This document shows positions 1-11,661 of a stretch of 11,661 nt of DNA, piece by piece. This DNA is from a virus, in UHGV virus genome UHGV-0318018. One strand, written 5' to 3'. Position 1 is the first letter of the stretch. Each line of letters begins with the position of its first letter. Under the pieces are notes generated by a model. It was not told the DNA's origin. It saw only the letters and a list, made by a program, of their open reading frames with translations, and did not search any database. Both the position numbers and the translations under genes were made by a program.

Positions 1-23
1 TTGTTGCTGATAATGGCGAACAT

Positions 24-692
24 ATGGACTTCATTGCCGCAAATCAATGCCGGAGTCAGCCGGATGACGCAAAGCGGATAGAGTGTTATGACAAAGCTGT
101 AACTCCAACACGCACCAAAACATTAGAAAAGTTTGAAAGCAGGGATCAATGCAGGGATGAGGCGTGGGAGAAAAAAAGGCTGTCTTGCTATGATCGTTTT
201 TTTTCTCCAACATTTACTAATGCCAAGGTTGACAATGTACATAAAGACAGTAGGGATGTTGGGGACTGGAAAGTTGATATAAAAACATCTCCAATCGATG
301 ACTCTAAAAATGTTGTTATCTTTGTGAATGGTAATGATTCTTTTAGGTCCCCGTTTGGAGACAACATAACTCCAACTCTTTATATTGCGTGTAGGGAAAA
401 TAAAACAGAGCTGTTTATAGATTGGGATGTATACTTGGGGCTGAGTGAAACTACGATGATTCATCGAATAGATAAACAAAAAGCCATAAACAGAAAGTGG
501 TCTATTTCAACAAATACAAAGGCCGTCTTTTATGATGGTAATGTGATTGATTTTATAAGAAAGTTACAAAGTGGTAATCAGTTATTTGCTCAGATAACCC
601 CATATAGTGAAAGTCCGGTGAGCACAACCTTTAATCTCAAAGGTCTTTCTGAAGTTATTAAACCATTACAAGAATCATGTAACTGGAAATAG
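24..692 (+). CDS. Hypothetical protein in an AT-rich accessory gene; possibly 5'-truncated by the window edge
   Basis: 222-codon ORF, stop TAG at 690-692. The frame is open from position 3, so the true start may lie upstream. Composition is visibly more AT-rich than the phage tail genes. Contains a duplicated motif C-x9-R-[IL]-x-C-Y-D (CRSQPDDAKRIECYD and CRDEAWEKKRLSCYD). No family recognised by eye. Confidence 0.5.
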   Translation: MDFIAANQCRSQPDDAKRIECYDKAVTPTRTKTLEKFESRDQCRDEAWEKKRLSCYDRFFSPTFTNAKVDNVHKDSRDVGDWKVDIKTSPIDDSKNVVIFVNGNDSFRSPFGDNITPTLYIACRENKTELFIDWDVYLGLSETTMIHRIDKQKAINRKWSISTNTKAVFYDGNVIDFIRKLQSGNQLFAQITPYSESPVSTTFNLKGLSEVIKPLQESCNWK

Positions 693-719
693 CTATTGGT
701 GTTGTTTTCCGAATAATAA

Positions 720-752
720 CCCCGCGATTGTATATAGCGGGGTTATTATTTT
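720..752. terminator. Bidirectional rho-independent terminator between convergent genes
   Basis: Stem CCCCGC (720-725) pairs with GCGGGG (737-742) around an 11-nt loop, followed by TTATTATTTT (743-752) on + and a T-rich run on the - strand. Sits between the stop of the 24-692 ORF and the stop of the 770-1066 ORF. Confidence 0.5.
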
Positions 753-769
753 GGCCTGATTGTCAGGTA

Positions 770-1066
770 TCAGCCATATTTGCGGGCGAAATCTTCATCT
801 GAGGTGCATAGATAGATAAAAAATTCAATAAAAGCCACGATTGCCGGGATAAATGTCCAGCAAAAAATAAGGTAAAGAAATCCCTGCCCCACTTTACCTA
901 AATAAAATTTGTGTGCACCAAGACCACCTAAAAAGAAAGCCAGTAGTGCGGCTGTCATTCTGCTTTTTGAACTTGCTGTTCTTTGAGGTGCTCCACAATT
1001 GGGGCAGGATGTGGCATCTTTATGTATTTCCTTGCCGCATCCGCGGCAAAATACCATTTCACTCAT
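770..1066 (-). CDS. Small membrane protein with N-terminal zinc-ribbon (CxxC...CxxC) and TM2-like hydrophobic C-terminal domain
   Basis: 98-codon ORF. N-terminus CRGCG...CPNCG is a C4 zinc ribbon, followed by two hydrophobic segments (LLAFFLGGLGAHKFYLG and LYLIFCWTFIPAIVAFIEFFIYL). SD-like AAGGA sits 7 nt upstream of the ATG at 1066. Confidence 0.6.
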   Translation of the reverse strand: MSEMVFCRGCGKEIHKDATSCPNCGAPQRTASSKSRMTAALLAFFLGGLGAHKFYLGKVGQGFLYLIFCWTFIPAIVAFIEFFIYLCTSDEDFARKYG

Positions 1067-1170
1067 AAAGAGTTCCTTTCAAATTTAAACAAGCGTTAAG
1101 CCCACCACTCTTACTGGCGGGCCTCAATTTAAATTTGGGTGCCACTTCGACCTTACCCTGGCAACCGATT

Positions 1171-1192
1171 GACGGGGGATTGCTCCCCCGTC
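1171..1192. other. Perfect 9-bp stem hairpin (GACGGGGGA-TTGC-TCCCCCGTC) in the hok 3' flank
   Basis: Read directly from the sequence. Followed on + by GCGGTTTCC. Could be a transcript 3' structure of the hok mRNA or a terminator; function not established. Confidence 0.3.
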
Positions 1193-1201
1193 GCGGTTTC
1201 C

Positions 1202-1342
1202 TTACTGCTTACACTGTAAGAACGCCGCAAACTCCGCTCCCCAGAAGCTCATCCGTATTTCGCACAGCGAACCGTGCAGCATCCAGATGATGAGGATTGC
1301 CGTCACGCAGAACGTGATGGCCGTAAGCGATTTTTGCGACAT
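1202..1342 (-). CDS. hok: Hok/Gef-family type I toxin (small membrane-depolarising peptide)
   Basis: Hand translation of the - strand gives ATG(1342-1340) MSQKSLTAITFCVTAILIIWMLHGSLCEIRMSFWGAEFAAFLQCKQ stop TAA(1204-1202), 46 aa. It has an N-terminal TM helix followed by the SLCEIR motif and an E-x-AAF C-terminal region typical of Hok/HokA-E peptides. AAGGAG SD lies 8 nt upstream. It is absent from the ORF track because it is under 60 aa. Confidence 0.6.
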   Translation of the reverse strand: MSQKSLTAITFCVTAILIIWMLHGSLCEIRMSFWGAEFAAFLQCKQ

Positions 1343-1472
1343 AGCACTTGCTCCTTTTCCGGAGAGGCGCTAACCTTTCACTTGTCAAGGTAATGCGGTT
1401 AGGGCCTCGGTTAAACAGAAATGTTTTCCGGGGCCTTTCCACATCTGGCCTTCGGGTATTCCCTCCGACCAT
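1209..1472 (-). CDS. mok-like overlapping reading frame (modulation of killing) covering the hok gene in another frame
   Basis: 87-codon ORF that starts 130 nt upstream of the hok ATG and ends 7 nt before the hok stop, in a different frame. This geometry matches the mok/hok arrangement of plasmid R1. The sequence itself is not conserved enough to confirm. Confidence 0.3.
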   Translation of the reverse strand: MVGGNTRRPDVERPRKTFLFNRGPNRITLTSERLAPLRKRSKCYVAKIAYGHHVLRDGNPHHLDAARFAVRNTDELLGSGVCGVLTV

Positions 1473-1532
1473 CAGCCGAAAGGCACCCGCGCGTAATCTA
1501 TCGCTTTTTTGTTACTCCGGCAATTCTGTTAG

Positions 1533-1793
1533 TTAATTCTGAGATAAAGGCAAACTCATCTGATTGTTTCCCCTGTGTGAAGCTGGCAGCTCATGCCACG
1601 GGATACCTTCTGAAGAGTGAACGCCGGAGGCGTGTTTTGATGTGAATTTATGGAAAGCTTCCAGTGTTGAGAAGCATACGCCGCATTCCAGGTTGTTACA
1701 CTGGTAATACTTTTGCCGCACGGTGTTTGAATCATTTTCCGGACGACTGGTGCGGATACGGGCAGATGCGCCACAAAGCGGACAACGGAACAT
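1533..1793 (-). CDS. ogr: Ogr/Delta-family zinc-finger late transcription activator
   Basis: 86 aa beginning MFRCPLCG...YYQCNNLECGVCF, with the four Cys of the Ogr zinc finger at positions 4, 7, 32 and 37. Strong SD AAGGGAGG sits 5 nt upstream of the ATG at 1793. Lies immediately downstream of gpD as in P2. Confidence 0.85.
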   Translation of the reverse strand: MFRCPLCGASARIRTSRPENDSNTVRQKYYQCNNLECGVCFSTLEAFHKFTSKHASGVHSSEGIPWHELPASHRGNNQMSLPLSQN

Positions 1794-1835
1794 AGCGACC
1801 TCCCTTAACGTGGTGCTGCTGCTATTCTAAGTTGC

Positions 1836-2945
1836 TCACTCTGTTTCTGCTATCCATTCCGGGATTTTTGCCTCAAGCTCAAGCTGCGTGGTAAAGCCGC
1901 TGTTATCGATGGTGTGCTCGGCTTTTGCAATAATCCAGTCCTGATTATCAATCTCGCTTTTAAATCCTGTTACCGTGCCATGCATTTCGGGGTAGAGTTC
2001 TGCACGACCACGTGCCAGCGTGATGGAGAATGATGCGGCTCCGCGTTGTAGCTGCTGCCACTTTGCCGCCGCTGCGCGTCTTGCTGCCTGCTCGTTCTGA
2101 TAAGTCTTGCGTAACACAAACACATTGCCTTCCGCGCCTTCCATATAATCACCTTCACGGCTGCTGCTTTTCTCCTTTTTGGGTTTTGGCGGTTTGCGGC
2201 GTTTCACGCTGACTTTTTTCTTTTTCCCGTAATTAAGATCAAGCCAGTAAGCGCGTACCCCCGTATACGCCTCGCGGTCAGCAATGCGGAACTGATGGCG
2301 ATCGCCGCTACTGCGTGTGATGGCGAACGATGGCAACGGCTGGCCCTGTGCGTTCACGCCACCGCCGGGCATGATGAATAACAGATTACCGCTTTTTACC
2401 GTGGTGATTGCGCCCAGCATTTCCGCCATGCGCGTAAGGAAGGACATGTCACTTTCTTCGGTCTGGTCGGCGTGGTCGATTTCGATATCCATCAGCATTT
2501 CGCTGATTTGCGGTTTCAGACCGTACCGATGAGCGATGGCGGATACCACACGCTCAACGGTCACATCATGCCAGGACACCTCACGTTTAACGTTAAATTC
2601 ATCCCGAAAATCTGCGCTTCTGGCTGAAACAGTCAGCCTGTCCGGCGGTCCTTCGTGAGCGATTTCATCAACAATGTAAGTGCCTTTTTCTGTCAGCGGT
2701 TCTCCTTTCCAGCCAATGAGAACCGTCAGGCGCGCGCCCCGTGGCGGTAGCTGCAACTGACCATCTGCATCATCCAGCGTGATGGTGAGCTGGTCTGCTT
2801 CAAATCCCCGGTTGTCGGTCAGTGACAGGCTCATCAGGCGCTCTGCCACGCCTGACAGCGTTTTACCCTCCGCGAGAATATCAAAATCCGGCATTTTCAC
2901 GGGGTCTGTGCTCTGACTGAGCAATTGCATGGTGGTGTCGGTCAT
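1836..2945 (-). CDS. P2 gpD-like tail protein (late control gene D family)
   Basis: Long ORF 1836-2966. The preferred start is the ATG at 2945 (MTDTTMQLL...), preceded by GGGAGGG at 5-nt spacing. Size (about 369 aa) and position next to ogr match P2 gpD. Contains an unusual Lys/Arg-rich patch GKKKKVSVKRRKPPKPKKEK. Confidence 0.85.
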   Translation of the reverse strand: MTDTTMQLLSQSTDPVKMPDFDILAEGKTLSGVAERLMSLSLTDNRGFEADQLTITLDDADGQLQLPPRGARLTVLIGWKGEPLTEKGTYIVDEIAHEGPPDRLTVSARSADFRDEFNVKREVSWHDVTVERVVSAIAHRYGLKPQISEMLMDIEIDHADQTEESDMSFLTRMAEMLGAITTVKSGNLLFIMPGGGVNAQGQPLPSFAITRSSGDRHQFRIADREAYTGVRAYWLDLNYGKKKKVSVKRRKPPKPKKEKSSSREGDYMEGAEGNVFVLRKTYQNEQAARRAAAAKWQQLQRGAASFSITLARGRAELYPEMHGTVTGFKSEIDNQDWIIAKAEHTIDNSGFTTQLELEAKIPEWIAETE

Positions 2946-3101
2946 CTTTCCCTCCCTGTGCGGCATGGTCGCATGTGCGTGCGGAGGGGGTTACTGCTTT
3001 TTGTTGTCGCCGTGGCGGGAGAACGGCGCAGGGGTGAGATTACGCGCGTGGTGGGTGATGATTGTTGCCGAATCATTTAACGGATACAAGGGGCTGAAGC
3101 T
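2946..3101. promoter_or_regulatory. Divergent intergenic region expected to carry promoters for D-ogr (leftward) and the FI-U operon (rightward)
   Basis: 156-bp gap between divergent start codons, each with a good SD. No exact Ogr box (TGT-N12-ACA) was found by eye, so promoter positions are not assigned. Confidence 0.35.
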
Positions 3102-4286
3102 ATGAGTGAAACTCGTTTTCATGGTGCCCGTGTCACGGAAAGTACCGACCTGGTAACAGCGGTTAATGATGTTGATTCCAGCGTTATCGGTATCGTGGCA
3201 ACGGCGGATGATGCGGATGCGGAGCTGTTCCCGCTGAACAAGCCCACACTGCTGACCCGCGTCAATGACGTGCTGGGAAAATGCGGTACTACGGGGACGC
3301 TTTATCGTGCGCTTAAGGCTATCGCAGACCAGGTGAGCACAAAGGTGATCGTCGTTCGCGTGGCTGAACACAAAAAAGAAGGCGGTAAGACGCAGGATCA
3401 ACTGGTTATCGGTGGTTCTGAGGATGACGGCAGCTATACGGGGATGTATGCGCTGCTTGTTGCAGAGCAGGATGAAAGCATCGGATACCGTCCGCGCATT
3501 CTGGCTGCGCCGGAGCTGGACACGGAGGCGGTGACAAAATCTCTGTGCGTGATTGCAGGTAAACTGCGCGCGTTTGTGTATGCCTCATGTCATGGCTGTG
3601 ACACGATGGCCGAGGCAATTACCTACCGCCAGAAATTCAACGAACGTGAGGTGATGCTCTTATGGCCGGACTTTATCGCCTACAACCCGAAAAGTGGCAA
3701 AAACGAAACGTTCCCCGCGCCTGCCTATGCGTGCGGCCTTCGTGCGTACATTGACCATGAGCAGGGCTGGCACAAATCGCTGTCCAACGTTCCGGTTAAA
3801 AATGTGCTGGGGATGTCCAGGCATGTGTTCTGGTCGTTGCAGGCCGAAGACAGTGATGCCAACAGCCTCAACAACAAAGAAATCACGACCATTATTCGTC
3901 GCAACGGGTTCCGCTTCTGGGGCAACCGCACACCGGAAACGAACGCCTACATCTTTGAGGTGTATACCCGAACCGCACAGGTGCTGGCTGATTCAATTGC
4001 GGAAGCGCAGTTTGAAACCATCGACAGTCCACTGACGCCTGCGAATGTGAAGGATGTTATCAGTGCCATCAGGGCAAAACTGGATTCACTGGTTACTGCC
4101 GGGAAACTGATTGGGGCGTCGTGCTGGTATGACGTGGTGGATAACGGCACCACGAATTTACGTCAGGGGCGCGTGCGTATTCGCTACAAATATACGCCTG
4201 TTCCCCCGCTGGAAGACATGGAGCTTTACCAGTCGTTTACTGATGAATTCTTTGGTCCCGCATTTGCGGTGCTGGGAGGTGCCTGA
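3102..4286 (+). CDS. Contractile tail sheath protein (P2 gpFI family)
   Basis: 394 aa. Conserved sheath blocks visible, e.g. DADAE.FPLNKP, KLRAF.Y, WPDF.A, EQGWHK.LSNV, IRR.GFRFWGNRT, NYTRTAQV, YTPVPPLE. AAGGGG SD upstream of the ATG. Confidence 0.9.
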   Translation: MSETRFHGARVTESTDLVTAVNDVDSSVIGIVATADDADAELFPLNKPTLLTRVNDVLGKCGTTGTLYRALKAIADQVSTKVIVVRVAEHKKEGGKTQDQLVIGGSEDDGSYTGMYALLVAEQDESIGYRPRILAAPELDTEAVTKSLCVIAGKLRAFVYASCHGCDTMAEAITYRQKFNEREVMLLWPDFIAYNPKSGKNETFPAPAYACGLRAYIDHEQGWHKSLSNVPVKNVLGMSRHVFWSLQAEDSDANSLNNKEITTIIRRNGFRFWGNRTPETNAYIFEVYTRTAQVLADSIAEAQFETIDSPLTPANVKDVISAIRAKLDSLVTAGKLIGASCWYDVVDNGTTNLRQGRVRIRYKYTPVPPLEDMELYQSFTDEFFGPAFAVLGGA

Positions 4287-4798
4287 TGGCTGTACCAAAA
4301 CATCTTCGCTTTTTTACGCTGTTTGTGGATGGTGAAAACGAAGTGGGTAAGGTGACGTCCGTCACTCTACCTAAGCTGACGCGCAAAACCGACAGCTACC
4401 GGGGTGGTGGCATGATGGGTGCGGTAAGTATTGATCTCGGTCTGGACGACTCCGCGCTTGATGCGAGCTTTGTCATGGGGGGCGCAGTTCGTGAGCTGTT
4501 CCTTAAGTATGGCGGCACGATTGACGGCACGCTGCTGCGTTTTGCGGGTGAATACTACACCGATGCAGAAAGCGACCTGTATGAAGTCGAAATGCGCGGA
4601 CGTGTGACGGAAATTGATATGGGGGAAGCCAAACAGGGCGAAGCCACATCACACAATTACGCCATTAAAAACACCTACTACAAGCTGAGTGTTAACGATC
4701 GCCCGTTGTGGGAGATTGACCTGCTGAACTTCATTTACCGGAAGGACGGCAAGGACATTGTGCCCGATCGCATCCGTTCCGCGCTCGGGCTTGGCTGA
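4286..4798 (+). CDS. Tail tube protein (P2 gpFII family)
   Basis: 170 aa. The start overlaps the FI stop by 1 nt (TGATG), with GGGAGG SD. Motifs VTLPKLTRK..YRG.GM and LRFAG.Y are typical of FII tube proteins. Confidence 0.9.
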   Translation: MAVPKHLRFFTLFVDGENEVGKVTSVTLPKLTRKTDSYRGGGMMGAVSIDLGLDDSALDASFVMGGAVRELFLKYGGTIDGTLLRFAGEYYTDAESDLYEVEMRGRVTEIDMGEAKQGEATSHNYAIKNTYYKLSVNDRPLWEIDLLNFIYRKDGKDIVPDRIRSALGLG

Positions 4799-4852
4799 TA
4801 AGTAATATGCAGGCGGCGCAGTGCGTCGCCTCTGACTGAAAGGAGTTTCCTG

Positions 4853-5218
4853 ATGAAAGAGACGAAAAACATCGATACCGAAAACACGGTAGTTACTGAC
4901 ACTGTGAAAGAAACCAGTGAGCGTGGCGTAAAACTTACCCAACCAATTGAGCGAGGCGGCGAAAAAATCACGTATGTGGAGATCACCGGGGCTATTGAGC
5001 AGGCTGGATCTCTGCGAGATTTGTCGCTGTCTGATGTGCTGAATCTGAAAGCGGAATCCATGTTTACGCTGCTGTCACGCGTGACATCACCGCGACTGGA
5101 TGAAGTGACGATCAAAAAAATGGCATCCCGTGACTTTATTCAGTTATGTGTGGTTGCCGTAAATTTTTTGAGCGGTGCGGACTCTGGCGGGAAGAACGAA
5201 CAGGCGACGGAAGCCTGA
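4853..5218 (+). CDS. Tail assembly chaperone gpE (zero-frame product)
   Basis: 121-codon ORF with AAAGGAG SD 7 nt upstream. It sits between the tube and tape measure genes and carries a slippery TTTTTTG near its 3' end, as in P2 E. Confidence 0.7.
   Translation: MKETKNIDTENTVVTDTVKETSERGVKLTQPIERGGEKITYVEITGAIEQAGSLRDLSLSDVLNLKAESMFTLLSRVTSPRLDEVTIKKMASRDFIQLCVVAVNFLSGADSGGKNEQATEA
5164..5170 (+). other. Programmed -1 ribosomal frameshift slippery heptamer TTTTTTG (E to E')
   Basis: T TTT TTG in the E frame (codons NFL). The -1 frame continues open to the TGA at 5380-5382. The same heptamer mediates the E/E' frameshift in P2. Confidence 0.6.
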
Positions 5219-5382
5219 TCACGGTTGTGTGCTTTGAGCACATAGAAGACTTTGTGGCGGATATTGCCGCCATTTTTAACTGGTCGCCCGCCGAAATCTT
5301 CATGATGACGCCCGGCGAAGTGGTTAGCTGGCGTGAGCGGGCGGCACTTCGCAGCGGGAATGCAGACAATGAAGACTCTTGA
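5170..5382 (+). CDS. E' extension; the fusion product E+E' is made by a -1 frameshift at 5164-5170
   Basis: The -1 frame is open from the slippery site to 5382 (ERCGLWREE...FVADIAAIFNWSPAEIF...LRSGNADNEDS). This is the G/GT-like chaperone arrangement upstream of the tape measure gene. Confidence 0.6.
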   Translation, partial: ERCGLWREERTGDGSLITVVCFEHIEDFVADIAAIFNWSPAEIFMMTPGEVVSWRERAALRSGNADNEDS

Positions 5383-8176
5383 TATCCGGGTCGCTTTCAG
5401 CGCCGTTGACAGGCTGACCCGGCCTGCCGAAAACGCCCGCCGCCTGATGGGGCAGTTTGGTGACTCCATCCAGCGAACGCAGGGGGCGATCAAAAATCTC
5501 GAGCGTCAGGCGCGATCATTTGAGCGCGCCCGCGACGCTGTCAGTAAAGCGGATGCGGGTATCGTGAAAGCACGACGCCAGCTTAACGCCCTTAATCAGT
5601 TACAACGCACGGGTACAGTGCTCAGCGAAAAACAACAAAAGCTGATGCAGCAGTTAAGCACCCGGCTTGAACGCCTGAATGAATCGCGCACACGGGAAAT
5701 TCAAAAAATGCGGGAGCTTGGCGGAGAGCTGAAACGCCACGGCATTTCCCTGACAGGCAGCGATAACACCATCCAGCAGGCCATCAGACGCACCGAACAG
5801 TACAACAACCAGCTTGAACGCGAACGGCAGGCGCTTGCACGTGTAACGCGGGCGCGTGAGCGGTATTCGCGCGCGCAGGAAACAGCGGGAAAACTGAAAA
5901 CAGGTGGTGCGCTGGCAACTGGTGCGGCAGCGGCGGGCGGCTATGCTGCCGGGCGTTTTTTGCAGCCTGCGATCGGGTTCGGCAAAGAGATGTCCCGCGT
6001 TCAGGCACTGACGCGAATCGACAAAAACAGCCCGCAGTTTAAGGCGCTGCGTGAGCAGGCGTTAAAACTTGGCTCTGAAACACAGTTTACTGCGAGTGAT
6101 GCCGCCAGTGGACAGAGCTTTCTGGCAATGGCTGGTTTTACTCCGCAGGCCATTCAGGCTGCACTTCCCGGCGTGCTGAGCATGGCAACGGCTGGCGGTA
6201 TGGATCTCGGCGAGACGGCGGATATTGGCTCAAATATCCTGACGCAGTTCGGCCTTTCTGCTGACCAGATGGACCGGGTCGGTGACACGCTCACCGCAGC
6301 GTTTACCCGTACCAACACTGACCTTCGCGCACTTGGCGAAACCATGAAATATGCAGGTCCGGTGGCGGGCAAGCTGGGAATATCGCTGGAGCAGGCCGCA
6401 GCGATGGCGGGCGTACTGGCGAATATGGGTATCAGGGGAAGTGATGCCGGGACGGCAATGCGTGCCAGCCTGGCTCGTCTGGCATCACCGCCAAAGGCGG
6501 CGGCAGAAGCTCTGAAAGAGCTGGGCGTGTCCGTCTCTGATGCGAATGGCAAAATGCGCCCGATGGAAGATCTGCTGGCTGACCTTTATAAAGCCACCCG
6601 CAAATACGGGGAAGTTGACCGGGTATCGTTCTTTAAGGACATTGCCGGGGGAGAGGCTTTCACATCGTTTATGGCACTCGTTGATGCGGCGGGTGACGGT
6701 TCCTTACCCAAACTGAGAAAAGAACTTGAGGGCGCACGCGGTGAGGCTGAACGCACGGCAAAGGTGATGGCCGACAACCTTGATGGCGACCTGAAAAATC
6801 TGGACAGCGCATGGGAAGGTCTGCGTATTCGCATTGCAGATCTGATTGACGGTCCGCTGCGTTCTGTCACGCAGTGGCTCACGCGGGTGGTCTCAAAGGT
6901 GACGGCGCTGGCGCAGGCCCATCCGGCACTGACGCGCCAGCTACTGATAGCAGGCGGTGCGCTGCTGGCAATGACTGCAACGGTCGGCTCGTTGTCGCTG
7001 GTTATTGGGGTGCTTTACGGGAAGCTGGCCACCCTGCGTCTTGGTTTCGACATTCTTACCCGGTCAATGAATGTCGTCAGGGTGTTGCCTGCGCTGTGGG
7101 GAATGGTGACGGGTTCCGTTTCTTTACTGGGAGGCGCCATCGGGGCGTTGTTCAGTCCGGTTGGTCTTATCGTGGCTGCGCTTGCCGGAGCTGCCGTTCT
7201 TATCTGGAAATACTGGGATCCCATCAGGGCATTTTTTGCCGGGGTGTTCAGCGGGATTATGGAAAGGCTGACCCCGTTGCGCGAAACCTTTGAACGGTTT
7301 GGTCCTGTTTTTGACGCAATCGGAAGCGGGATCAGCCAGGTGTTTAACTGGTTTAAATCGCTGCTGTCACCGATGGAATCCAGCAAGGAAACGCTGGATA
7401 AATGTACCAGTGCTGGCGAGATATTCGGTAACGTTCTTGGTGGCGCGTTACAACTTGTTCTGACGCCTGCAAAAATGCTGCTGGATACGCTGGCGTGGAT
7501 ACTTGAAAAACTTGGCGTCCTTCCGGATGAAGCGGAAAGGGCGCGCAAGAAAATCGAAGACGCACAGCGTGCGGCCATTCTTCAGGACAAGGTTGCCTTG
7601 CTTCAGGGGGACCTGGCGAAAATCAATCCGCCGAAGCCTGTGGAAAATGGCAATGGCACCGGAGGTGATAAACCCAAAGACAACAAACCGCTCACAGACA
7701 GCAATACCGGGACGCTACGCAGACTCAGCAAAATTGCTGATAACACAGGTAAGCTGGTTGATGAGACGAAAAAACGCATTGGCCCCGGCGATATTGTCTT
7801 TAAGAACCTGCCCCGCGCACTTGCTGTTCGTGGGGAGTGGCAGGAGCGGAAGATTGCGCAGGTCAGTAAGTCTGCCCCCGCAATGAATATCACACCCGTG
7901 GTTCCGGCTCCGCTGCCTCCGGCGCTGGTCCCTGTTGTTGCGACCAGCTCCCGCCCGGTGGCAGAGGCCATACGATCGCCAGTGGCATCAGTTCCTGCAA
8001 CTTCCCGTAACCGGGAACCTGTTGCCTCCGGATTTGGCGGTGAAATTCATGTTCATCTGCATAACGTTGTTACGCAGAATCCCCGCGAACTGGCGAAACT
8101 GGTCGGTGAAATGGTCAGGGCAGAAATGGAACGGCGCGCCCGTGCCGGGCGTGGCAGTTTTTACGATAAAGATTGA
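5369..8176 (+). CDS. Tail tape measure protein (P2 gpT family)
   Basis: Long ORF open from the GTG at 5333; in-frame ATGs at 5360 and 5369. 5369 is preferred because GGGAA lies 8 nt upstream. Shows a coiled-coil-rich N-terminus, a TMP core (DLRALGETMKYAGPVAGKLGISLEQAAAMAGVLANMGIRGSDAGTAMRASLARL) and Gly/Ala-rich hydrophobic segments. Confidence 0.85.
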   Translation: MKTLDIRVAFSAVDRLTRPAENARRLMGQFGDSIQRTQGAIKNLERQARSFERARDAVSKADAGIVKARRQLNALNQLQRTGTVLSEKQQKLMQQLSTRLERLNESRTREIQKMRELGGELKRHGISLTGSDNTIQQAIRRTEQYNNQLERERQALARVTRARERYSRAQETAGKLKTGGALATGAAAAGGYAAGRFLQPAIGFGKEMSRVQALTRIDKNSPQFKALREQALKLGSETQFTASDAASGQSFLAMAGFTPQAIQAALPGVLSMATAGGMDLGETADIGSNILTQFGLSADQMDRVGDTLTAAFTRTNTDLRALGETMKYAGPVAGKLGISLEQAAAMAGVLANMGIRGSDAGTAMRASLARLASPPKAAAEALKELGVSVSDANGKMRPMEDLLADLYKATRKYGEVDRVSFFKDIAGGEAFTSFMALVDAAGDGSLPKLRKELEGARGEAERTAKVMADNLDGDLKNLDSAWEGLRIRIADLIDGPLRSVTQWLTRVVSKVTALAQAHPALTRQLLIAGGALLAMTATVGSLSLVIGVLYGKLATLRLGFDILTRSMNVVRVLPALWGMVTGSVSLLGGAIGALFSPVGLIVAALAGAAVLIWKYWDPIRAFFAGVFSGIMERLTPLRETFERFGPVFDAIGSGISQVFNWFKSLLSPMESSKETLDKCTSAGEIFGNVLGGALQLVLTPAKMLLDTLAWILEKLGVLPDEAERARKKIEDAQRAAILQDKVALLQGDLAKINPPKPVENGNGTGGDKPKDNKPLTDSNTGTLRRLSKIADNTGKLVDETKKRIGPGDIVFKNLPRALAVRGEWQERKIAQVSKSAPAMNITPVVPAPLPPALVPVVATSSRPVAEAIRSPVASVPATSRNREPVASGFGGEIHVHLHNVVTQNPRELAKLVGEMVRAEMERRARAGRGSFYDKD

Positions 8177-8188
8177 GGAGTCATGGCC

Positions 8189-8677
8189 ATGATGATGATC
8201 TACGGCATGTTTGTTTTTGAGCTGCGCACGCTGCCGCATCAGCAGTTACAGCAAAACAAAAGCTGGCGGCATGTGAAAAATGAACGCGTTAACCGTTCAG
8301 CAAGCTGGCAGTATATCGGTGCAGGTGATGATCGCATCGTGCTTTCTGGTGTGCTTTATCCTGAAATTACAGGTGGCGAAGTGTCGCTGTCGCTGCTGAC
8401 CACGCAGGCGTATACAGGACACCCCTGGCCTCTGATTGATGGCGTCGGGCAGATTTACGGCATGTATGTCCTGACCGACACGAATACGACCCGTTCCGAG
8501 TTTGATTGCTACGGCAAGGCGAAAAAGATAGAGTTTTCACTGACACTTGAACGCTGTGATGAAGATTTGCGGGAGCGACTACAATCCTCATCGTTCAGCG
8601 ATATGCTGTCCGGCCTCAAAGATAAGGTGACGTCATCCCTTAACAGCGCGGCCAGCTCCGTTAAAGGGCTGTTTTGA
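8189..8677 (+). CDS. Tail protein gpU (P2 U family)
   Basis: ORF from 8183 (MAMMMIYGMFVFELRTLPHQQLQQNKSWRH...). The ATG at 8189 is favoured because GAGGAG at 8175-8180 then has 8-nt spacing. Motifs LQQ..SWRH and LSG.LYPE.TGG are shared with P2 gpU. Confidence 0.85.
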   Translation: MMMIYGMFVFELRTLPHQQLQQNKSWRHVKNERVNRSASWQYIGAGDDRIVLSGVLYPEITGGEVSLSLLTTQAYTGHPWPLIDGVGQIYGMYVLTDTNTTRSEFDCYGKAKKIEFSLTLERCDEDLRERLQSSSFSDMLSGLKDKVTSSLNSAASSVKGLF

Positions 8678-8684
8678 TTAACGC

Positions 8685-8714
8685 AAAACCGCTAATGGTC
8701 AGATTAGCGGTTTT
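8685..8714. terminator. Bidirectional terminator hairpin between U and the invertase gene
   Basis: AAAACCGCTAAT (8685-8696) pairs with ATTAGCGGTTTT (8703-8714) around a 6-nt loop, with T-runs on both strands. The invertase stop codon lies within the right arm. Confidence 0.5.
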
Positions 8715-9303
8715 CATTTTCCTGAGTCTGCCTGGTTGTTTCTTCAGCCTGTATATCGCCTACAGGGTGATAACGATAAATCGTCGATATGCCGATGTCG
8801 TAAATGATCGCCAGTTGTTTCCTGTCATGACCGTTTTTAATCAGCCTCGCTATTTGCTCGTGTTGTTCTTTTGTCAACTTCGGGCGACGTCCGCCAATGC
8901 GTCCTTGTGCGCGTGCTGCTGCCAGCCCGGCCAGTGTACGCTCTACAATTAATTCACGTTCCATTTCGGCTAAAGCCCCCATGACGTGAAAAAAGAAACG
9001 CCCCATGGGTGTTGATGTGTCAATGCTGTCCGTCAGACTACGGAAATTAACACCTTTTTCCCGCAATTCCTCAATAAGCGTGATCAGGTGTTTCATACTT
9101 CTGCCCAGTCTGTCCAGCTTCCAGACAACCAGCGTATCTCCTTCTGATAGCGTTCTGAGCAGTTTTTTCAATCCCGGTCTGGCTGATTTCGTTCCGCTGA
9201 TTTTATCTTCAAAAATCAGTTCACATCCTGCGCAGTTCAGTGCATTGCGTTGTAAATCCGTGTTTTGGTCATTTGTTGACACACGAATATAGCCAATTTG
9301 CAT
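8704..9303 (-). CDS. Serine DNA invertase, Pin/Gin/Cin/Hin family
   Basis: The true start is the ATG at 9303 (MQIGYIRVSTNDQNTDLQRNAL...), with AAAGAGGA SD. Resolvase catalytic N-terminus with active-site Ser in GYIRVSTNDQ, plus the motifs LVVWKLDRLGRS, GRFFFHVMGALAEMERELIVERTLAGLAAARAQGRIGGRRP and a C-terminal HTH. The longer ORF-track start at 9432 is an upstream artefact. Confidence 0.9.
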   Translation of the reverse strand: MQIGYIRVSTNDQNTDLQRNALNCAGCELIFEDKISGTKSARPGLKKLLRTLSEGDTLVVWKLDRLGRSMKHLITLIEELREKGVNFRSLTDSIDTSTPMGRFFFHVMGALAEMERELIVERTLAGLAAARAQGRIGGRRPKLTKEQHEQIARLIKNGHDRKQLAIIYDIGISTIYRYHPVGDIQAEETTRQTQENENR

Positions 9304-9357
9304 AAAAAACATCCTCTTTGTTTCGTGAAAAATACATAGTTGGTATAGGTAGGGATA

Positions 9358-9383
9358 AAGACGAAAACGTTGGTTTAGGAGAA
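9358..9383. promoter_or_regulatory. Candidate 26-bp invertase crossover site (cix/gix-like), overlapping the invertase promoter region
   Basis: AAGACGAAAACG-TT-GGTTTAGGAGAA. The right half, read on the other strand, is TTCTCCTAAACC, resembling Hin-family half-sites (TT.TC..AAACC). The left half is degenerate. It lies 55-80 bp upstream of the invertase ATG, where gixR/cixL-type sites sit. Not verified. Confidence 0.25.
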
Positions 9384-9521
9384 GGCTCGGCGCTACCCGT
9401 TGGTGTGCCTGTTCCGTGGCCCACCGCCACACCGCCAGCAGGCTGGTTAAAGTGCGACGGGCGCGCCTTTACAAAAGAACAATATCCTGTTCTGGCCAGA
9501 GTCTACCCGACCCTCCGTCTT
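9366..9521 (+). pseudogene. Tail-fibre collar fragment (NVGLGEGSALPVGVPVPWPTATPPAGWLKCDGRAFTKEQYPVLARVYPTLRL), truncated at a recombination junction
   Basis: Conserved tail-fibre collar motif G.P.PWP..PAGWL.C.G..F....YP.LA..YP. Homology ends abruptly at 9521/9522, where inverted repeat IR-A begins. There is no start codon and no N-terminal shaft. Confidence 0.45.
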
Positions 9522-9631
9522 ATATCAGCACGGCACCTGAAATCAGCTGGCCGGAAGCGCCACTGGCACTTGCCAGCTGAACGGTATCACGCCGCCCTCA
9601 CGATATAGTTAAACGCGATATTGCGGGGGCG
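9522..9631. repeat. IR-A left arm (110 bp), inverted copy of 10103-10212
   Basis: Reverse complement of 10103-10212 with 4 mismatches by hand alignment. Contains the fibre 3' end (RPRNIAFNYIVRAA stop) on the - strand and a Tfa 3' end on the + strand. Confidence 0.85.
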
Positions 9632-10148
9632 GGTTATGTTAAAGAATGCTCCGTTTAATTCGGCTTTTGCGCGACTGTTTGTTCCACCCAGAATTGCGTA
9701 CCACTTGCCTGTTGGTGTGCCTGTTCCGTGGCCCACCGCCACACCGCCAGCAGGCTGGTTACAGTGCAACGGAGCTACGTTCACCAAAGGACAATATCCT
9801 GTTCTGGCCAGAGTCTACCCGACCCTCCGTCTTCCCGATTTGCGCGGTGAGTTTATCCGTGGATGGGACGGTGGTCGCAAGGTTGATACCGGGCGTGCGC
9901 TACTTTCATTTCAGGAAGGGACTATCGTATCCGGTTTTGATGATAATGATACCGGAGATATCAGTTCGCTCGGCTCTACACAATATGGATTTGGTGACGC
10001 TTTAACCTCTAATCAACTGGGGGTCATAAATGACAAAAAGTGGATATTTGATGCATCCTCTAAAGGTGCACAAAGATATGACTGGTGGGCTTATGTATCA
10101 GCTCGCCCCCGCAATATCGCATTTAACTATATCGTGAGGGCGGCGTGA
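9621..10148 (+). CDS. Tail-fibre C-terminal cassette 1 (collar plus receptor-binding tip), lacking the N-terminal shaft
   Basis: Open frame containing LPVGVPVPWPTATPPAGWLQCNGATFTKGQYPVLARVYPTLRLPDLRGEFIRGWDGGRKVDTGRA..., ending RPRNIAFNYIVRAA. Collar motifs match Mu S / P1 S / P2 H-type fibres. Only a TTG or an internal ATG (9636) is available as a start, so it is probably silent unless fused to a constant region. Confidence 0.55.
   Translation: MRGRVMLKNAPFNSAFARLFVPPRIAYHLPVGVPVPWPTATPPAGWLQCNGATFTKGQYPVLARVYPTLRLPDLRGEFIRGWDGGRKVDTGRALLSFQEGTIVSGFDDNDTGDISSLGSTQYGFGDALTSNQLGVINDKKWIFDASSKGAQRYDWWAYVSARPRNIAFNYIVRAA
9756..9870. repeat. IR-B left arm (115 bp, collar-coding), inverted copy of 11098-11212
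   Basis: Reverse complement of 11098-11212 with 2 mismatches. Encodes WLQCNGATFTK.QYPVLARVYPTLRLPDLRGEFIRGWD in both cassettes. Confidence 0.85.
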
Positions 10149-10212
10149 TACCGTTCAGCCGGCAAGCGCCAGTGGCGCTTCCGGCCAGCTGATTTCAGGT
10201 GCCTTGCTGATA
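10103..10212. repeat. IR-A right arm (110 bp)
   Basis: See IR-A left arm. Spans the convergent 3' ends of cassette 1 (+) and the tail-fibre assembly gene (-). Confidence 0.85.
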
Positions 10213-10769
10213 TTCAGTGCGTTCAGCTCGTCGATATAATCCAGCACGGCGTTCAGTTTTGCCGTTTCTTCTGGTGTCAGACTGCGACCAGCACGCAGTT
10301 TGAGGTTGATAAGATCGACGGACGCCATCGCCTGTTTCACCCGTTGCTGGCGTTGCTGTCTGGCAACCTCCAGTTCTGCGGCTCGCTGCCGTTCAGTATC
10401 GGTTACCCACGCCTCACCGTTCCAGGTATCCCATGGCGTGGCTGGCTGTTTTGTGGTGGTGTCCGCCGGGTAATCACCCGGTTGGGTAATCAGAACGGGG
10501 TTACCGTTCTCCGTGCTGTATACCGTCTCGCCGCGGTGATCAGGCACATGCTCCCACCCGTTCAGCGTGGCAGTCCGGCAAACCACGTAACCCGAAATTG
10601 CCTCCGGCGGTGCATCGGCGCACGAATGTGCCGGAGTACCCACCCCAAGGGCGAGATACTCCACAGAGGATGAGGTGTATTCCCGGGTTTCCTCGTCATA
10701 GTGATATACAGTGATATCGCCCGCTACAGTGGCGATACCGTTTTCATCCAGAACTGCAGTGTTACTCAT
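10155..10769 (-). CDS. Tail fibre assembly protein (Tfa / P2 gpG / Mu U-like chaperone)
   Basis: 204 aa. The ATG at 10769-10767 overlaps the stop of cassette 2 (TAATG), with GAGGG SD. The C-terminal half (TDTERQRAAELEVARQQRQ...PEISWPEAP) has the acidic/coiled-coil and WPE features typical of Tfa chaperones. Confidence 0.8.
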   Translation of the reverse strand: MSNTAVLDENGIATVAGDITVYHYDEETREYTSSSVEYLALGVGTPAHSCADAPPEAISGYVVCRTATLNGWEHVPDHRGETVYSTENGNPVLITQPGDYPADTTTKQPATPWDTWNGEAWVTDTERQRAAELEVARQQRQQRVKQAMASVDLINLKLRAGRSLTPEETAKLNAVLDYIDELNALNISKAPEISWPEAPLALAG

Positions 10770-11220
10770 TAAACTGCCCTCACAATGTAATTAAGTGCAA
10801 TGCTACGGGGTCTGACAGTGATACCCTTCGCATACCCGCTTCTGATAGAGGTCAGAATAGTAGCCTGCATACCATTGTCTGACATTGCCATGACAGGATC
10901 GCTGAATGTTGTCCCGTCCGGCATTTTAAAGCTGCCCTCACGAAGGTCTGTAATGGAATCTTCATTGTTGAATCCCATGCCGACTATCCCCGAGGTTCCC
11001 GTAGTGTCCTGGTTATAATAATCCAGCATTGCTGTTCTTAACAGCGTTGCCCCTTGTGCGGACAGCAACTTACGTCCTGTATCAACTTTGCGCCCGTCGT
11101 CCCATCCACGGATAAACTCACCGCGTAAATCGGGAAGACGGAGGGTCGGGTAGACTCTGGCCAGAACAGGATATTGTTCTTTGGTGAACGTAGCTCCGTT
11201 GCACTGTAACCATGCAACAT
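10769..11220 (-). CDS. Tail-fibre C-terminal cassette 2 (collar plus distinct tip), start-less, translationally coupled to the downstream Tfa
   Basis: Hand translation of the - strand gives one continuous frame: WLQCNGATFTKEQYPVLARVYPTLRLPDLRGEFIRGWDDGRKVDTGRKLLSAQGATLLRTAMLDYYNQD...ITVRPRSIALNYIVRAV stop. It is open back to an in-frame stop at 11245-11243. The ORF-track TTG start at 11068 is internal, and there is no ATG. Confidence 0.55.
11098..11212. repeat. IR-B right arm (115 bp)
   Basis: See IR-B left arm. Confidence 0.85.
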
Positions 11221-11486
11221 TTATTCGTACAGCTTTGCAGGATTATTACGGTTACGATCTGAATACTAATGTCAAAGTAGGTATCGCTTTTGCTACTGCT
11301 GATTCTGTTATAACCGTTGGAAACCCAGCTAATCCTAAAGCAGGAAATAATAGCGATTATGTTCCTGCATCAGCAGATAACTCTATAACGGGTATTCAAA
11401 GGACAGCGGAGGATAATTTTACCGGGGCATGGATATCAATGCGCCCCCGCAATGTTGCGTTTAATTACATCGTAAGGGCCGCATAA
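11211..11486 (+). CDS. Tail-fibre tip cassette 3 (collar-less), start-less
   Basis: Frame reads HATFIRTALQDYYGYDLNTNVKVGIAFATADSVITVGNPANPKAGNNSDYVPASADNSITGIQRTAEDNFTGAWISMRPRNVAFNYIVRAA stop. It aligns with the post-collar part of cassette 2 (ATLLRTAMLDYYNQD...) and shares the C-terminal RPRN.AFNYIVRAA end. There is no in-frame ATG; the ORF-track N-terminus MVNVAPLHCN is the antisense of the collar. Confidence 0.45.
   Translation, partial: HATFIRTALQDYYGYDLNTNVKVGIAFATADSVITVGNPANPKAGNNSDYVPASADNSITGIQRTAEDNFTGAWISMRPRNVAFNYIVRAA
11251..11368. repeat. IR-C left arm (118 bp, perfect), inverted copy of 11544-11661
   Basis: Exact reverse-complement identity over 118 bp, verified base by base. 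The inner end carries a 29-bp near-palindrome GCAGGAAATAATAGCGATTATGTTCCTGC (11340-11368). Confidence 0.9.
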
Positions 11487-11573
11487 AAACGTTGGTTTGG
11501 GGGAAGGCTCTGCATTGCCTGTTGGTGTGCCTGTTCCGTGGCCGCAGGAACATAATCGCTATTATTTCCTGCT
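11476..11573 (+). pseudogene. Truncated collar-start fragment (GPHKNVGLGEGSALPVGVPVPWP) fused at 11543/11544 to inverted cassette sequence
   Basis: Third direct copy of the CTGTTGGTGTGCCTGTTCCGTGGCC collar start. Homology to the other copies ends at 11543, and the frame then runs through the antisense of cassette 3 to a TAG. Confidence 0.4.
11480..11505. promoter_or_regulatory. Second candidate cix/gix-like site, directly after the cassette 3 stop codon
   Basis: CGCATAAAAACG-TT-GGTTTGGGGGAA. The half-site read on the other strand is TTCCCCCAAACC. Same orientation as the 9358-9383 candidate, and followed by the same collar-start sequence. Confidence 0.2.
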
Positions 11574-11661
11574 TTAGGATTAGCTGGGTTTCCAACGGTT
11601 ATAACAGAATCAGCAGTAGCAAAAGCGATACCTACTTTGACATTAGTATTCAGATCGTAAC
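11544..11661. repeat. IR-C right arm (at least 118 bp; truncated by the window end)
   Basis: Exact reverse complement of 11251-11368. On the - strand it encodes the same tip segment (...DLNTNVKVGIAFATADSVITVGNPANPKAGNNSDYVPA), entering from beyond the window. Confidence 0.9.

What the first reader, a model, noticed from the sequence alone, without database searches (positions are those of the whole stretch)
11251..11661. Perfect inverted repeat of at least 118 bp flanking a 175-bp spacer, with a 29-bp palindrome at the inner edge of each arm
11251-11368 and 11544-11661 are exact reverse complements, against 2-4 mismatches in the other IR pairs. This implies very recent or ongoing exchange. 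The spacer (11369-11543) carries the 3' end of the tip cassette, its stop codon and a collar start. Flipping the spacer would move the proper ...RPRNVAFNYIVRAA terminus from the + strand copy to the - strand copy that enters from beyond the window. Identity ends exactly at a near-palindrome, GCAGGAAATAATAGCGATTATGTTCCTGC, which is a plausible crossover site even though it does not match the classic hix/gix consensus.
Basis: seen in the sequence. Interest (0 to 1): 0.6.

Follow-up and report, generated by a model that had tools for sequence, protein, structure and literature searches.

The report
Inverted duplicate inside tail-fibre shufflon
The perfect inverted repeat is really in the sequence, but it is two copies of one tail-fibre tip cassette inside a well-known Gin/Min-type invertible tail-fibre region of a P2-like E. 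coli prophage, and its inner edge is a junction seen nowhere else, so it is most likely an assembly chimera or a dead-end rearrangement and not a new recombination site.

Summary
11251-11368 and 11544-11661 are exact reverse complements (118 nt, 175-nt spacer). The outer limit is set only by the window end.

The interpretation mostly fails. The window is a P88/P2-like prophage tail module with a Gin-like serine invertase (73.5% identical to Mu Gin) and a multi-cassette invertible tail-fibre region.

The real crossover sites are 26-bp hix-like sites at 9358-9383 and 11480-11505. The second lies inside the spacer. Two complete E. coli genomes carrying the same prophage in opposite isomers exchange exactly at the site's TT core. 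The 29-mer near-palindrome matches hixL and gix at chance level (4-5 of 26) and is an ordinary hairpin.

The arms are an invariant internal stretch of one tip cassette, so perfect identity carries no timing information.

The inner right edge (11543|11544) is one of four blunt breakpoints within 2.3 kb, none with microhomology. None occurs in 5,426 complete E. coli genomes, and none was found in any other collection where it was searched. A relative with one mismatch over 9,521 nt reads straight through the first breakpoint. No cassette in the window is intact.

Most likely this is a mis-assembled heterogeneous region (about 0.55). Otherwise it is a genuine strain-specific scramble (about 0.33). 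Low interest.

The parts
8704..9303 (-). Gin/Hin-family serine DNA invertase, 199 aa, catalytic Ser9 in YIRVSTNDQ
   Evidence: Pfam Resolvase + HTH_7. PDB Gin chains 4M6F/3UJ3, E about 1e-91. 136 of 185 positions identical, 73.5%. Translation.
9358..9383 (+). 26-bp hix-like crossover site next to the invertase (AAGACGAAAACG TT GGTTTAGGAGAA)
   Evidence: Pattern search: 2 matches in the window, 0 in 200 shuffles. 17 of 26 identical to hixL as recalled from memory. Same position as in relatives.
9364..9521 (+). Head (site + collar) of a cassette, cut off at breakpoint J1 (9521|9522)
   Evidence: L008 matches window 1-9521 with 1 mismatch, then continues with ordinary collar sequence. Blunt junction.
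9522..9704 (.). 183-nt fragment between breakpoints J1 and J2. It holds the last 59 nt of a tail-fibre assembly gene (+) and the last 118 nt of a 'tip D' cassette (-).
   Evidence: 100% identical to L001 6823-6641. In complete E. coli genomes, matches stop exactly at both ends.
9705..10148 (+). Collar cassette A, lacking its crossover site because breakpoint J2 (9704|9705) removes it
   Evidence: Pfam Collar. 98% identical to L003-L005 from 9705 on. Parent sequence shows the site just upstream of the break.
10155..10769 (-). Tail-fibre assembly protein, 204 aa
   Evidence: Pfam Caudo_TAP. The exact protein is found on short contigs L006 and L007.
10769..11212 (-). Cassette B', lacking its first ~80 nt and its site because breakpoint J3 (11212|11213) removes them
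   Evidence: 98% identical to L001-L005 up to 11212. Blunt junction. Matches in complete genomes start or stop at 11213.
11213..11486 (+). Tip of cassette C on the plus strand, with no collar and no site ahead of it, ending ...RPRNVAFNYIVRAA*
   Evidence: 11213-11543 is 100% identical to L001 6001-6331 and to at least 20 complete genomes. Translation.
11251..11368 (+). Left arm of the perfect inverted repeat (interior of tip C)
11340..11368 (.). 29-nt near-palindrome, coding for ...KAGNNSDYVPA... in tip C. Its mirror copy is at 11544-11572.
   Evidence: Hairpin of -7.7 kcal/mol, about 19th best locus in the window. 4-5 of 26 matches to hixL and gix. Present unbroken in all other tip C copies.
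11369..11543 (+). 175-nt spacer: 3' end of tip C, a crossover site, and the first 54 nt of a cassette head
11480..11505 (+). 26-bp hix-like crossover site inside the spacer (CGCATAAAAACG TT GGTTTGGGGGAA). It is in direct orientation relative to the site at 9358.
   Evidence: Crossover mapped to the TT core by comparing isomers L001 and L021.
11543..11544 (.). Breakpoint J4: a collar head joined bluntly to the interior of tip C in the opposite orientation. This is the inner edge of the right arm.
   Evidence: No microhomology. Absent from complete E. coli genomes, GTDB representative genomes, IMG/VR, JGI metagenomes and all the related loci fetched by then (L001-L020).
11544..11661 (-). Right arm: interior of tip C on the minus strand, entering from beyond the window, as in the normal arrangement of relatives
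   Evidence: 100% identical to L002 7511-7628 and to L001 6156-6039.

Best explanation
**What the locus is.** This is the invertible tail-fibre region of a P88/P2-like E. coli prophage. A Gin-like serine invertase swaps alternative C-terminal cassettes onto the constant part of the tail-fibre gene. Each cassette is 'crossover site - collar - tip - stop'. The constant part lies beyond the window on the minus strand.

**Where recombination happens.** It occurs at 26-bp hix-like sites, at their central TT. One such site sits inside the 175-nt spacer.

**What the repeat is.** The perfect inverted repeat is not part of that machinery. It is an internal stretch of one tip cassette ('tip C') present twice in opposite orientation. 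The right-hand copy is joined bluntly, at 11543|11544, to the head of another cassette.

**The wider scramble.** That join is one of four blunt breakpoints, unique in every search made, that scramble the 2.3-kb region and leave no cassette intact in the window.

**Shown:** the anatomy, the true sites, the position of the crossover, and that every search made for the junctions came back empty.

**Inferred:** the scramble arose when a repeat-rich region, heterogeneous through inversion, was assembled. Sequence from a second resident prophage with identical cassette alleles was probably mixed in. On this reading the repeat is a fold-back or chimera and not a structure of the living genome. The 29-mer near-palindrome is an ordinary piece of coding sequence that happens to lie at the break.
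For: **System identity**
- Pfam and PDB matches for the invertase.
- The tail module and invertible region have the same layout as complete E. coli genomes.
- Site grammar holds in 16 related loci.
- Reciprocal exchange at C/G[TT]GGTTT between isomers L001 and L021.

**Repeat anatomy**
- Left arm plus spacer is a contiguous 100% match to L001 6039-6331. The right arm is the reverse of L001 6039-6156.

**Junctions**
- J1-J4 have 0-bp microhomology.
- In 5,426 complete E. coli genomes, every match stops exactly at a breakpoint.
- No exact hits in GTDB representatives (J4 and J3), JGI metagenomes (J4 and J1) or IMG/VR (all four).
- ORFs crossing J1, J2 and J3 are absent from the gene index and from 15 billion proteins.

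**Pointers to an artefact**
- L008 is identical to window 1-9521 except for 1 base, then continues as normal collar past J1.
- The L008 contig ends about 135 nt past the J1 position, inside the cassette region, and L009 stops earlier still, at window 8420. The other two contigs with this tape-measure allele were not displayed.
- The pieces next to the junctions are 100% the alleles of a different, widespread prophage, while the window's own piece is 98% to complete genomes.
- Every cassette is broken, although all other tail genes are intact.
- The window has two sites in direct orientation 2,122 nt apart, against the strict grammar of relatives.
- In 16 related loci no inverted repeat is perfect, none lies inside a tip, and none has a gap under 1,147 nt.
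Against: - The assembly method and the reads are unknown.
- A de Bruijn mis-join normally needs a shared k-mer at the join. None exists at J1-J4. An artefact would therefore need chimeric reads, an overlap/consensus assembler, gap closing, or amplification chimeras.
- Four such errors inside one contig is itself unusual.
- J4 lies exactly at the edge of the best hairpin of tip C. I estimate the chance of that at about 1-4%. It could point to a physical event at a hairpin, either in the cell or during library preparation.
- Whether the window end is a contig end is not known.
Confidence: 0.55

Rival explanations
1. The scramble is genuine. In this strain the invertible region has suffered one complex event, or several illegitimate ones, involving deletion, inversion and partial inverted duplication, possibly after exchange with a second prophage. 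This has left a defective tail-fibre locus. The 118-156-bp perfect repeat then really exists. It could flip its 175-nt spacer occasionally by RecA-dependent homologous recombination, which would restore an intact minus-strand tip C.
For: - Blunt junctions lacking shared k-mers are not what repeat-driven mis-assembly typically gives.
- Flipping the spacer recreates exactly the normal arrangement: the site on the minus strand followed by intact tip C. That arrangement is 100% identical to the reverse of L001 6039-6331 and 96.6% identical to L002 7336-7628.
- Prophage tail-fibre regions are known hotspots of rearrangement, and partial cassettes are annotated in relatives.
- J4 lies at a hairpin edge.
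Against: - It needs four unique breakpoints in 2.3 kb of an otherwise intact prophage. A near-identical relative lacks the first of them.
- No other genome has any of the junctions.
- The 100% identity of the fragments to another prophage's alleles, against 98% for the resident piece, fits mixing of two loci better than long residence.
- E. coli has no efficient end-joining pathway that would make 0-bp junctions (established knowledge).
Confidence: 0.33
2. The repeat is an active flip switch, and the 29-bp near-palindromes at the inner arm edges are non-canonical crossover sites for the neighbouring invertase.
For: Identity ends exactly at the near-palindrome. The flip would exchange a proper and an improper C-terminus. 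An invertase gene lies 2 kb away.
Against: - The palindrome has chance-level similarity to hix/gix sites (4-5 of 26). The true sites score 15-17 of 26 and are present, one of them in the spacer.
- Natural isomers exchange at the TT core of those sites.
- The palindrome is unbroken coding sequence in every other copy of tip C.
- On the left arm, sequence continuity with tip C runs straight through the palindrome. Only one 'edge' is therefore a junction, and no reciprocal product exists.
- A pair of serine-invertase sites gives a short imperfect repeat. It does not give 118 nt of flanking identity.
Confidence: 0.03
3. The repeat is a regular feature of this phage family, a conserved second pair of inverted repeats inside cassettes that broadens the repertoire.
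For: Cassettes on the two sides of the assembly gene do form inverted repeats in all relatives.
Against: In 16 related loci those repeats always begin at a crossover site and cover collar heads only. They are 82-97% identical and at least 1,147 nt apart. No locus has two copies of a tip. No complete genome contains the junction.
Confidence: 0.02

Closest known systems
Mu G segment / Gin, and P1 C segment / Cin (Hin-family serine invertase switches of tail-fibre genes)
   Same: - A small serine invertase 73.5% identical to Gin.
- 26-bp sites with a 2-bp core lying inside the tail-fibre reading frame at the constant/variable boundary.
- The invertible DNA carries alternative fibre C-termini plus a fibre assembly gene.
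   Different: Mu and P1 have two sites and two alternatives. This family has 2-8 sites and tandem cassettes that share a single assembly gene. The perfect tip-internal repeat under review has no counterpart in Mu or P1.
Min multiple-inversion system of plasmid p15B (from my own knowledge: Sandmeier, Iida and Arber, early 1990s)
   Same: One Hin-family invertase, several crossover sites, and many isomers that fuse different tail-fibre 3' cassettes to a constant 5' part.
   Different: Different replicon and different cassette families. I did not compare the sequences here.
P2-like prophage 'shufflon' of EPEC E2348/69 (Goldberg et al. 2014, PMC4272514)
   Same: A P2-like E. coli prophage with an invertase and three inverted repeats. 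It gives four coexisting variants and three alternative C-termini of one protein, shown by sequencing.
   Different: I did not align that locus to the window. That paper reports regular inversions at the repeats, not a tip-internal duplicate.
R64/IncI shufflon (Rci)
   Same: Works alike: multiple inversions shuffle C-terminal cassettes of one adhesin-type gene.
   Different: Rci is a tyrosine recombinase with 19-bp sfx sites. Here the enzyme is a serine invertase with hix-like sites, so this locus is not a member of that family.

Membership tests
Hin/Gin/Cin/Pin/Min serine-invertase inversion systems | Small serine recombinase (~190-200 aa) with an N-terminal catalytic domain, a catalytic Ser near residue 9-10, and a C-terminal HTH | tested here: met
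   Resolvase + HTH_7. Gin structures match at E about 1e-91 with 73.5% identity. Ser9 lies in YIRVSTNDQ.
Hin/Gin/Cin/Pin/Min serine-invertase inversion systems | 26-bp crossover sites (two imperfect 12-bp half-sites around a 2-bp core) in inverted orientation flanking the invertible DNA | tested here: inconclusive
   Two sites are present in the window (0 expected by chance), with 15-17 of 26 positions matching hixL and gix as recalled from memory. Both are on the plus strand, so they are direct repeats. The inverted partner should lie beyond 11661. In 14 of the 16 related loci the sites lie in inverted orientation around the assembly gene; L012 and L019 show sites on one strand only.
Hin/Gin/Cin/Pin/Min serine-invertase inversion systems | Strand exchange at the central dinucleotide of the site | tested here: met
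   Isomers L001 and L021 of one prophage show reciprocal exchange confined to C/G[TT]GGTTT. This was shown in relatives, not in the window's own strain.
Hin/Gin/Cin/Pin/Min serine-invertase inversion systems | Fis-dependent recombinational enhancer in the 5' part of the invertase gene | not tested
   I held no reference enhancer sequence, and Fis dependence needs an experiment.
Multiple-inversion (Min-type, shufflon-like) tail-fibre systems | More than two crossover sites and several alternative cassettes served by one recombinase | tested here: met
   Relatives with the identical invertase carry 2-8 sites and up to 7 Collar cassettes. The window shows parts of at least five cassettes.
The 29-mer near-palindrome as an invertase crossover site | Sequence resemblance to the family's sites, position at a cassette boundary, and a reciprocal junction in other genomes | tested here: not met
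   4-5 of 26 matches to hixL and gix. It lies inside the tip coding sequence. No other genome is broken there.
Assembly fold-back or chimera | Junctions unsupported by reads from single molecules, with a regular structure in the real genome | not testable with these tools
   Reads and source assembly are unavailable. The indirect evidence is unique blunt junctions, a near-identical relative lacking J1, and broken site grammar.

The most novel reading that the evidence does not exclude
The perfect tip-internal inverted repeat is genuine and acts as a second, invertase-independent layer of switching. Homologous recombination between the arms, or hairpin-stimulated exchange at the 29-mer, would toggle which of two inverted tip C copies carries the functional C-terminus. 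That would turn the expressed tail fibre on or off, on top of the Gin-type cassette shuffling.
Probability: 0.05. Interest if true: 0.45.

Novelty: already known. Interest (0 to 1): 0.13.

Why it matters
It matters little biologically. The underlying system, a Gin/Min-type multi-cassette inversion of a phage tail-fibre gene, is textbook and has already been described in P2-like E. coli prophages.

The practical lesson is methodological. In regions that are heterogeneous through inversion and carry several near-identical cassettes, a perfect inverted repeat touching the end of a sequence should be checked against relatives and reads before it is taken as biology. The real crossover sites should be sought at cassette boundaries.

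If the scramble were genuine, it would be a small example of how such loci decay.

Tried and rejected
1. **Finding the source or the sequence beyond 11661.**
   - Exact junction searches in GTDB representatives, JGI metagenomes and IMG/VR found nothing.
   - Gene-index look-ups with the assembly protein, sheath, tape measure and invertase gave only contigs that break at or before the region, or unrelated complete genomes.
2. **A de Bruijn repeat mis-join.** I looked for shared k-mers at the breakpoints. The only one is a 29-mer shared by the two truncated collar heads (9705-9733 and 11515-11543). This shows that 11213-11543 followed by 9734 onward would be a natural join, but it does not explain the blunt joins.
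3. **Arm edges as allele-bubble edges.** The two prophage types are identical well beyond both arm edges, so I rejected this.
4. **A single inversion, deletion or template-switch event.** No simple series reproduces the order of the pieces. Undoing an inversion of 11213-11543 still leaves a 22-nt deletion and a 156-nt duplication.
5. **Invertase action at pseudo-sites.** There is no half-site resemblance or 2-bp core identity at any junction.
6. **The palindrome as an exceptional structure.** It is only about the 19th best hairpin locus in the window.
7. **A homology search for the chimeric C-terminus.** I did not run it, because a protein with the 26 substituted residues would fall in the same 90% cluster as normal fibres and would be invisible.

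Full report
**1. The observation.** The two stretches 11251-11368 and 11544-11661 are exact reverse complements, 118 nt each with 175 nt between them. The repeat runs to the last base of the window, and 11251 is simply the mirror of 11661, so its true outer limit is unknown. Because another breakpoint lies at 11212|11213, it can extend to at most 156 nt if the right arm continues as the same cassette. The 29-mer near-palindrome is at the inner edge of each arm as described. It is a modest hairpin (-7.7 kcal/mol, DNA parameters), and about 18 other loci in the window fold as well or better.

**2. Context.** The window is the tail module of a P2-like prophage in E. coli.
- The genes are gpD (-), sheath, tube, E/E', tape measure and gpU (+).
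- A 199-aa serine invertase follows on the minus strand at 8704-9303. It has Resolvase + HTH_7 domains, Ser9, and 73.5% identity to Mu Gin over 185 residues.
- After the invertase comes an array of tail-fibre C-terminal cassettes with Collar domains and one tail-fibre assembly gene.
- The adjacency of gpU and the invertase matches P88/Xuanwuvirus phages.
- In complete genomes with the same layout (for example L002), the constant part of the fibre gene H lies on the far side of the array on the minus strand, which here is beyond the window.
- Relatives with the identical invertase carry 2-7 Collar cassettes.

**3. The real recombination sites.** Each cassette begins with a conserved sequence, AAAACG TT GGTTTrGGrGAAGG. 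The window has exactly two copies, at 9364 and 11486. None is expected by chance. Written as 26-bp sites, they are 9358-9383 and 11480-11505. They match hixL and gix, as I recall those sequences from memory, at 15-17 of 26 positions. The 29-mer matches at 4-5 of 26, which is chance level.

Two complete genomes, L001 (NZ_CP029576) and L021 (NZ_CP012631), carry the same prophage with the whole cassette block in opposite orientation. The flanks are exchanged reciprocally, and the exchange is confined to C/G[TT]GGTTT. This is a natural record of strand exchange at the central dinucleotide.

So the crossover site relevant to this finding lies inside the 175-nt spacer. It overlaps the stop codon of tip C and the start of the next collar. 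It is not at the arm edges.

**4. What the arms are.** Left arm plus spacer (11251-11543) belongs to a contiguous 331-nt stretch (11213-11543) that is 100% identical to L001 6001-6331 and to at least 20 other complete genomes. That stretch is the 3' part of one tip cassette ('tip C'), a crossover site, and the head of the next cassette. The right arm is the same interior piece of tip C on the other strand, and that is the orientation tip C has in relatives such as L002.

The stretch is identical in both prophage types that carry tip C, well beyond both arm edges. Perfect identity between the arms therefore says nothing about recent exchange.

**5. The junction.** At 11543|11544 the collar head (...CCGTGGCC) is joined to the interior of tip C (GCAGGAAC...). 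Elsewhere the collar always continues CACCGCC.... There is no microhomology at the join. The junction is absent from:
- 5,426 complete E. coli genomes, where every match stops at 11543;
- GTDB representative genomes;
- IMG/VR;
- JGI metagenomes;
- all the related loci fetched by then (L001-L020).

It is one of four such blunt breakpoints: 9521|9522, 9704|9705, 11212|11213 and 11543|11544. All are unique to this window in every search made for them. Not every junction was searched in every collection: GTDB was scanned for J3 and J4, JGI for J1 and J4, and IMG/VR for all four. ORFs that cross the first three are absent from a 15-billion-protein collection.

**6. Consequences for the locus.** As written, no cassette in the window is intact.
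- The first has a site but is cut after 157 nt.
- A and B' have lost their sites.
- Plus-strand tip C has no collar.
- 'D' is present only as a head and a tail.

The two sites are in direct orientation, 2,122 nt apart. In 14 of the 16 related loci the sites point towards the assembly gene from both sides; L012 and L019 show sites on one strand only. Site spacings in the related loci are 358-545 nt, or about 1,550-1,610 nt across the assembly gene. In those loci the inverted repeats always start at a site, cover collar heads, are 82-97% identical, and are at least 1,147 nt apart.

The minus-strand fibre copy entering the window would end in 26 unrelated residues. Flipping the spacer would restore the proper end and recreate the arrangement seen in L002.

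**7. Artefact or genuine?** Several observations favour an artefact:
- L008 (GCA_003298255.1) matches window 1-9521 with a single mismatch, then continues as ordinary collar past the first breakpoint.
- This tape-measure allele occurs on only four contigs in the gene index. The L008 contig runs about 135 nt past the J1 position and ends inside the cassette region, and L009 stops earlier, at window 8420. The other two contigs were not displayed.
- The fragments next to the breakpoints are 100% the alleles of a different, widespread prophage. The resident 1.5-kb piece (9705-11212) is 98% identical to complete genomes, and its core (9841-11125) is 100% identical to short metagenome contigs.
- All the other tail genes are intact.

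Other observations count against an artefact:
- Blunt joins without a shared k-mer are not the usual repeat-driven mis-join.
- Four of them in one contig is odd.
- J4 sits exactly at a hairpin edge.
- I do not know how the sequence was assembled.

**8. Comparison with what is known.** The system works like, and by the tests above belongs with, the Hin/Gin/Cin/Min family of serine-invertase switches. Specifically it is the multiple-inversion kind. Examples are Min of p15B (from my own knowledge) and the P2-like prophage 'shufflon' of EPEC E2348/69, which has three repeats, four variants and three C-termini (PMC4272514). Programmed inversions of phage tail-fibre genes are also a recognised class in a survey of representative bacterial genomes (PMC9881135). 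The Fis enhancer was not tested. The R64 shufflon is only a functional analogue, because it uses a tyrosine recombinase.

**9. Verdict.** The repeat is really in the sequence, but it is not a new recombination device. It lies inside an already known kind of system, and the palindrome is not the crossover site. The repeat is bounded by a junction that appears in no other sequence searched, so it is probably an artefact and at best a dead-end rearrangement. Interest is low.

Noticed in passing
L001 5760-7905 versus L021 3500-5645: Two complete E. coli genomes carry the same prophage with the whole C-D-Tfa-B cassette block in opposite orientation. The reciprocal exchange maps to C/G[TT]GGTTT of the 26-bp site. 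This is a natural record of Gin-type inversion.
   Followed up: yes
window 9521|9522, 9704|9705, 11212|11213: Three further blunt breakpoints have no microhomology and occur in no other sequence in any search made for them. They delimit a 183-nt and a 331-nt fragment that are 100% identical to another prophage's alleles. Their origin is unexplained.
   Followed up: partly
window 9705-9733 and 11515-11543: The two truncated collar heads share an identical 29-mer. As a result, 11213-11543 followed by 9734 onward would be a seamless, natural 'tip C - site - cassette' join, as if the pieces were placed in the wrong order.
   Followed up: partly
window 9636-10148 (+): An ATG in the antisense of the tip D fragment reads in frame across breakpoint J2 into cassette A, giving a 170-aa Collar protein. 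This exact product is absent from the 15-billion-protein collection.
   Followed up: partly
window 1836-9303; L002; L008: The gene order is ogr(-), D(-), then FI-FII-E-E'-T-U(+), then invertase(-), cassettes and H-I-J-W-V(-). The sheath-to-U block is therefore inverted relative to phage P2, as I recall the P2 order. The U-invertase adjacency matches P88/Xuanwuvirus records.
   Followed up: no
window 1-1800; L008 1-8700: The prophage abuts the host genes tamA-tamB-ytfP and a T6SS TagO/VasI gene. A hok/gef-like gene and a TM2/NINE gene lie between TagO/VasI and ogr. The first ~1.1 kb of the window matched almost no complete E. coli genome. The tape-measure allele is on only four contigs in the gene index, so the lineage is rare.
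   Followed up: partly
window 10157-10185 and 8685-8713: Two of the strongest hairpins in the window lie between convergent genes: -14.5 kcal/mol between cassette A and the assembly gene (the strongest of all), and -10.1 kcal/mol between gpU and the invertase (fifth strongest). They are likely bidirectional terminators.
   Followed up: no
window 4853-5382: The overlapping gpE and E' reading frames lie upstream of the tape measure, the arrangement expected for the P2-type programmed frameshift.
   Followed up: no
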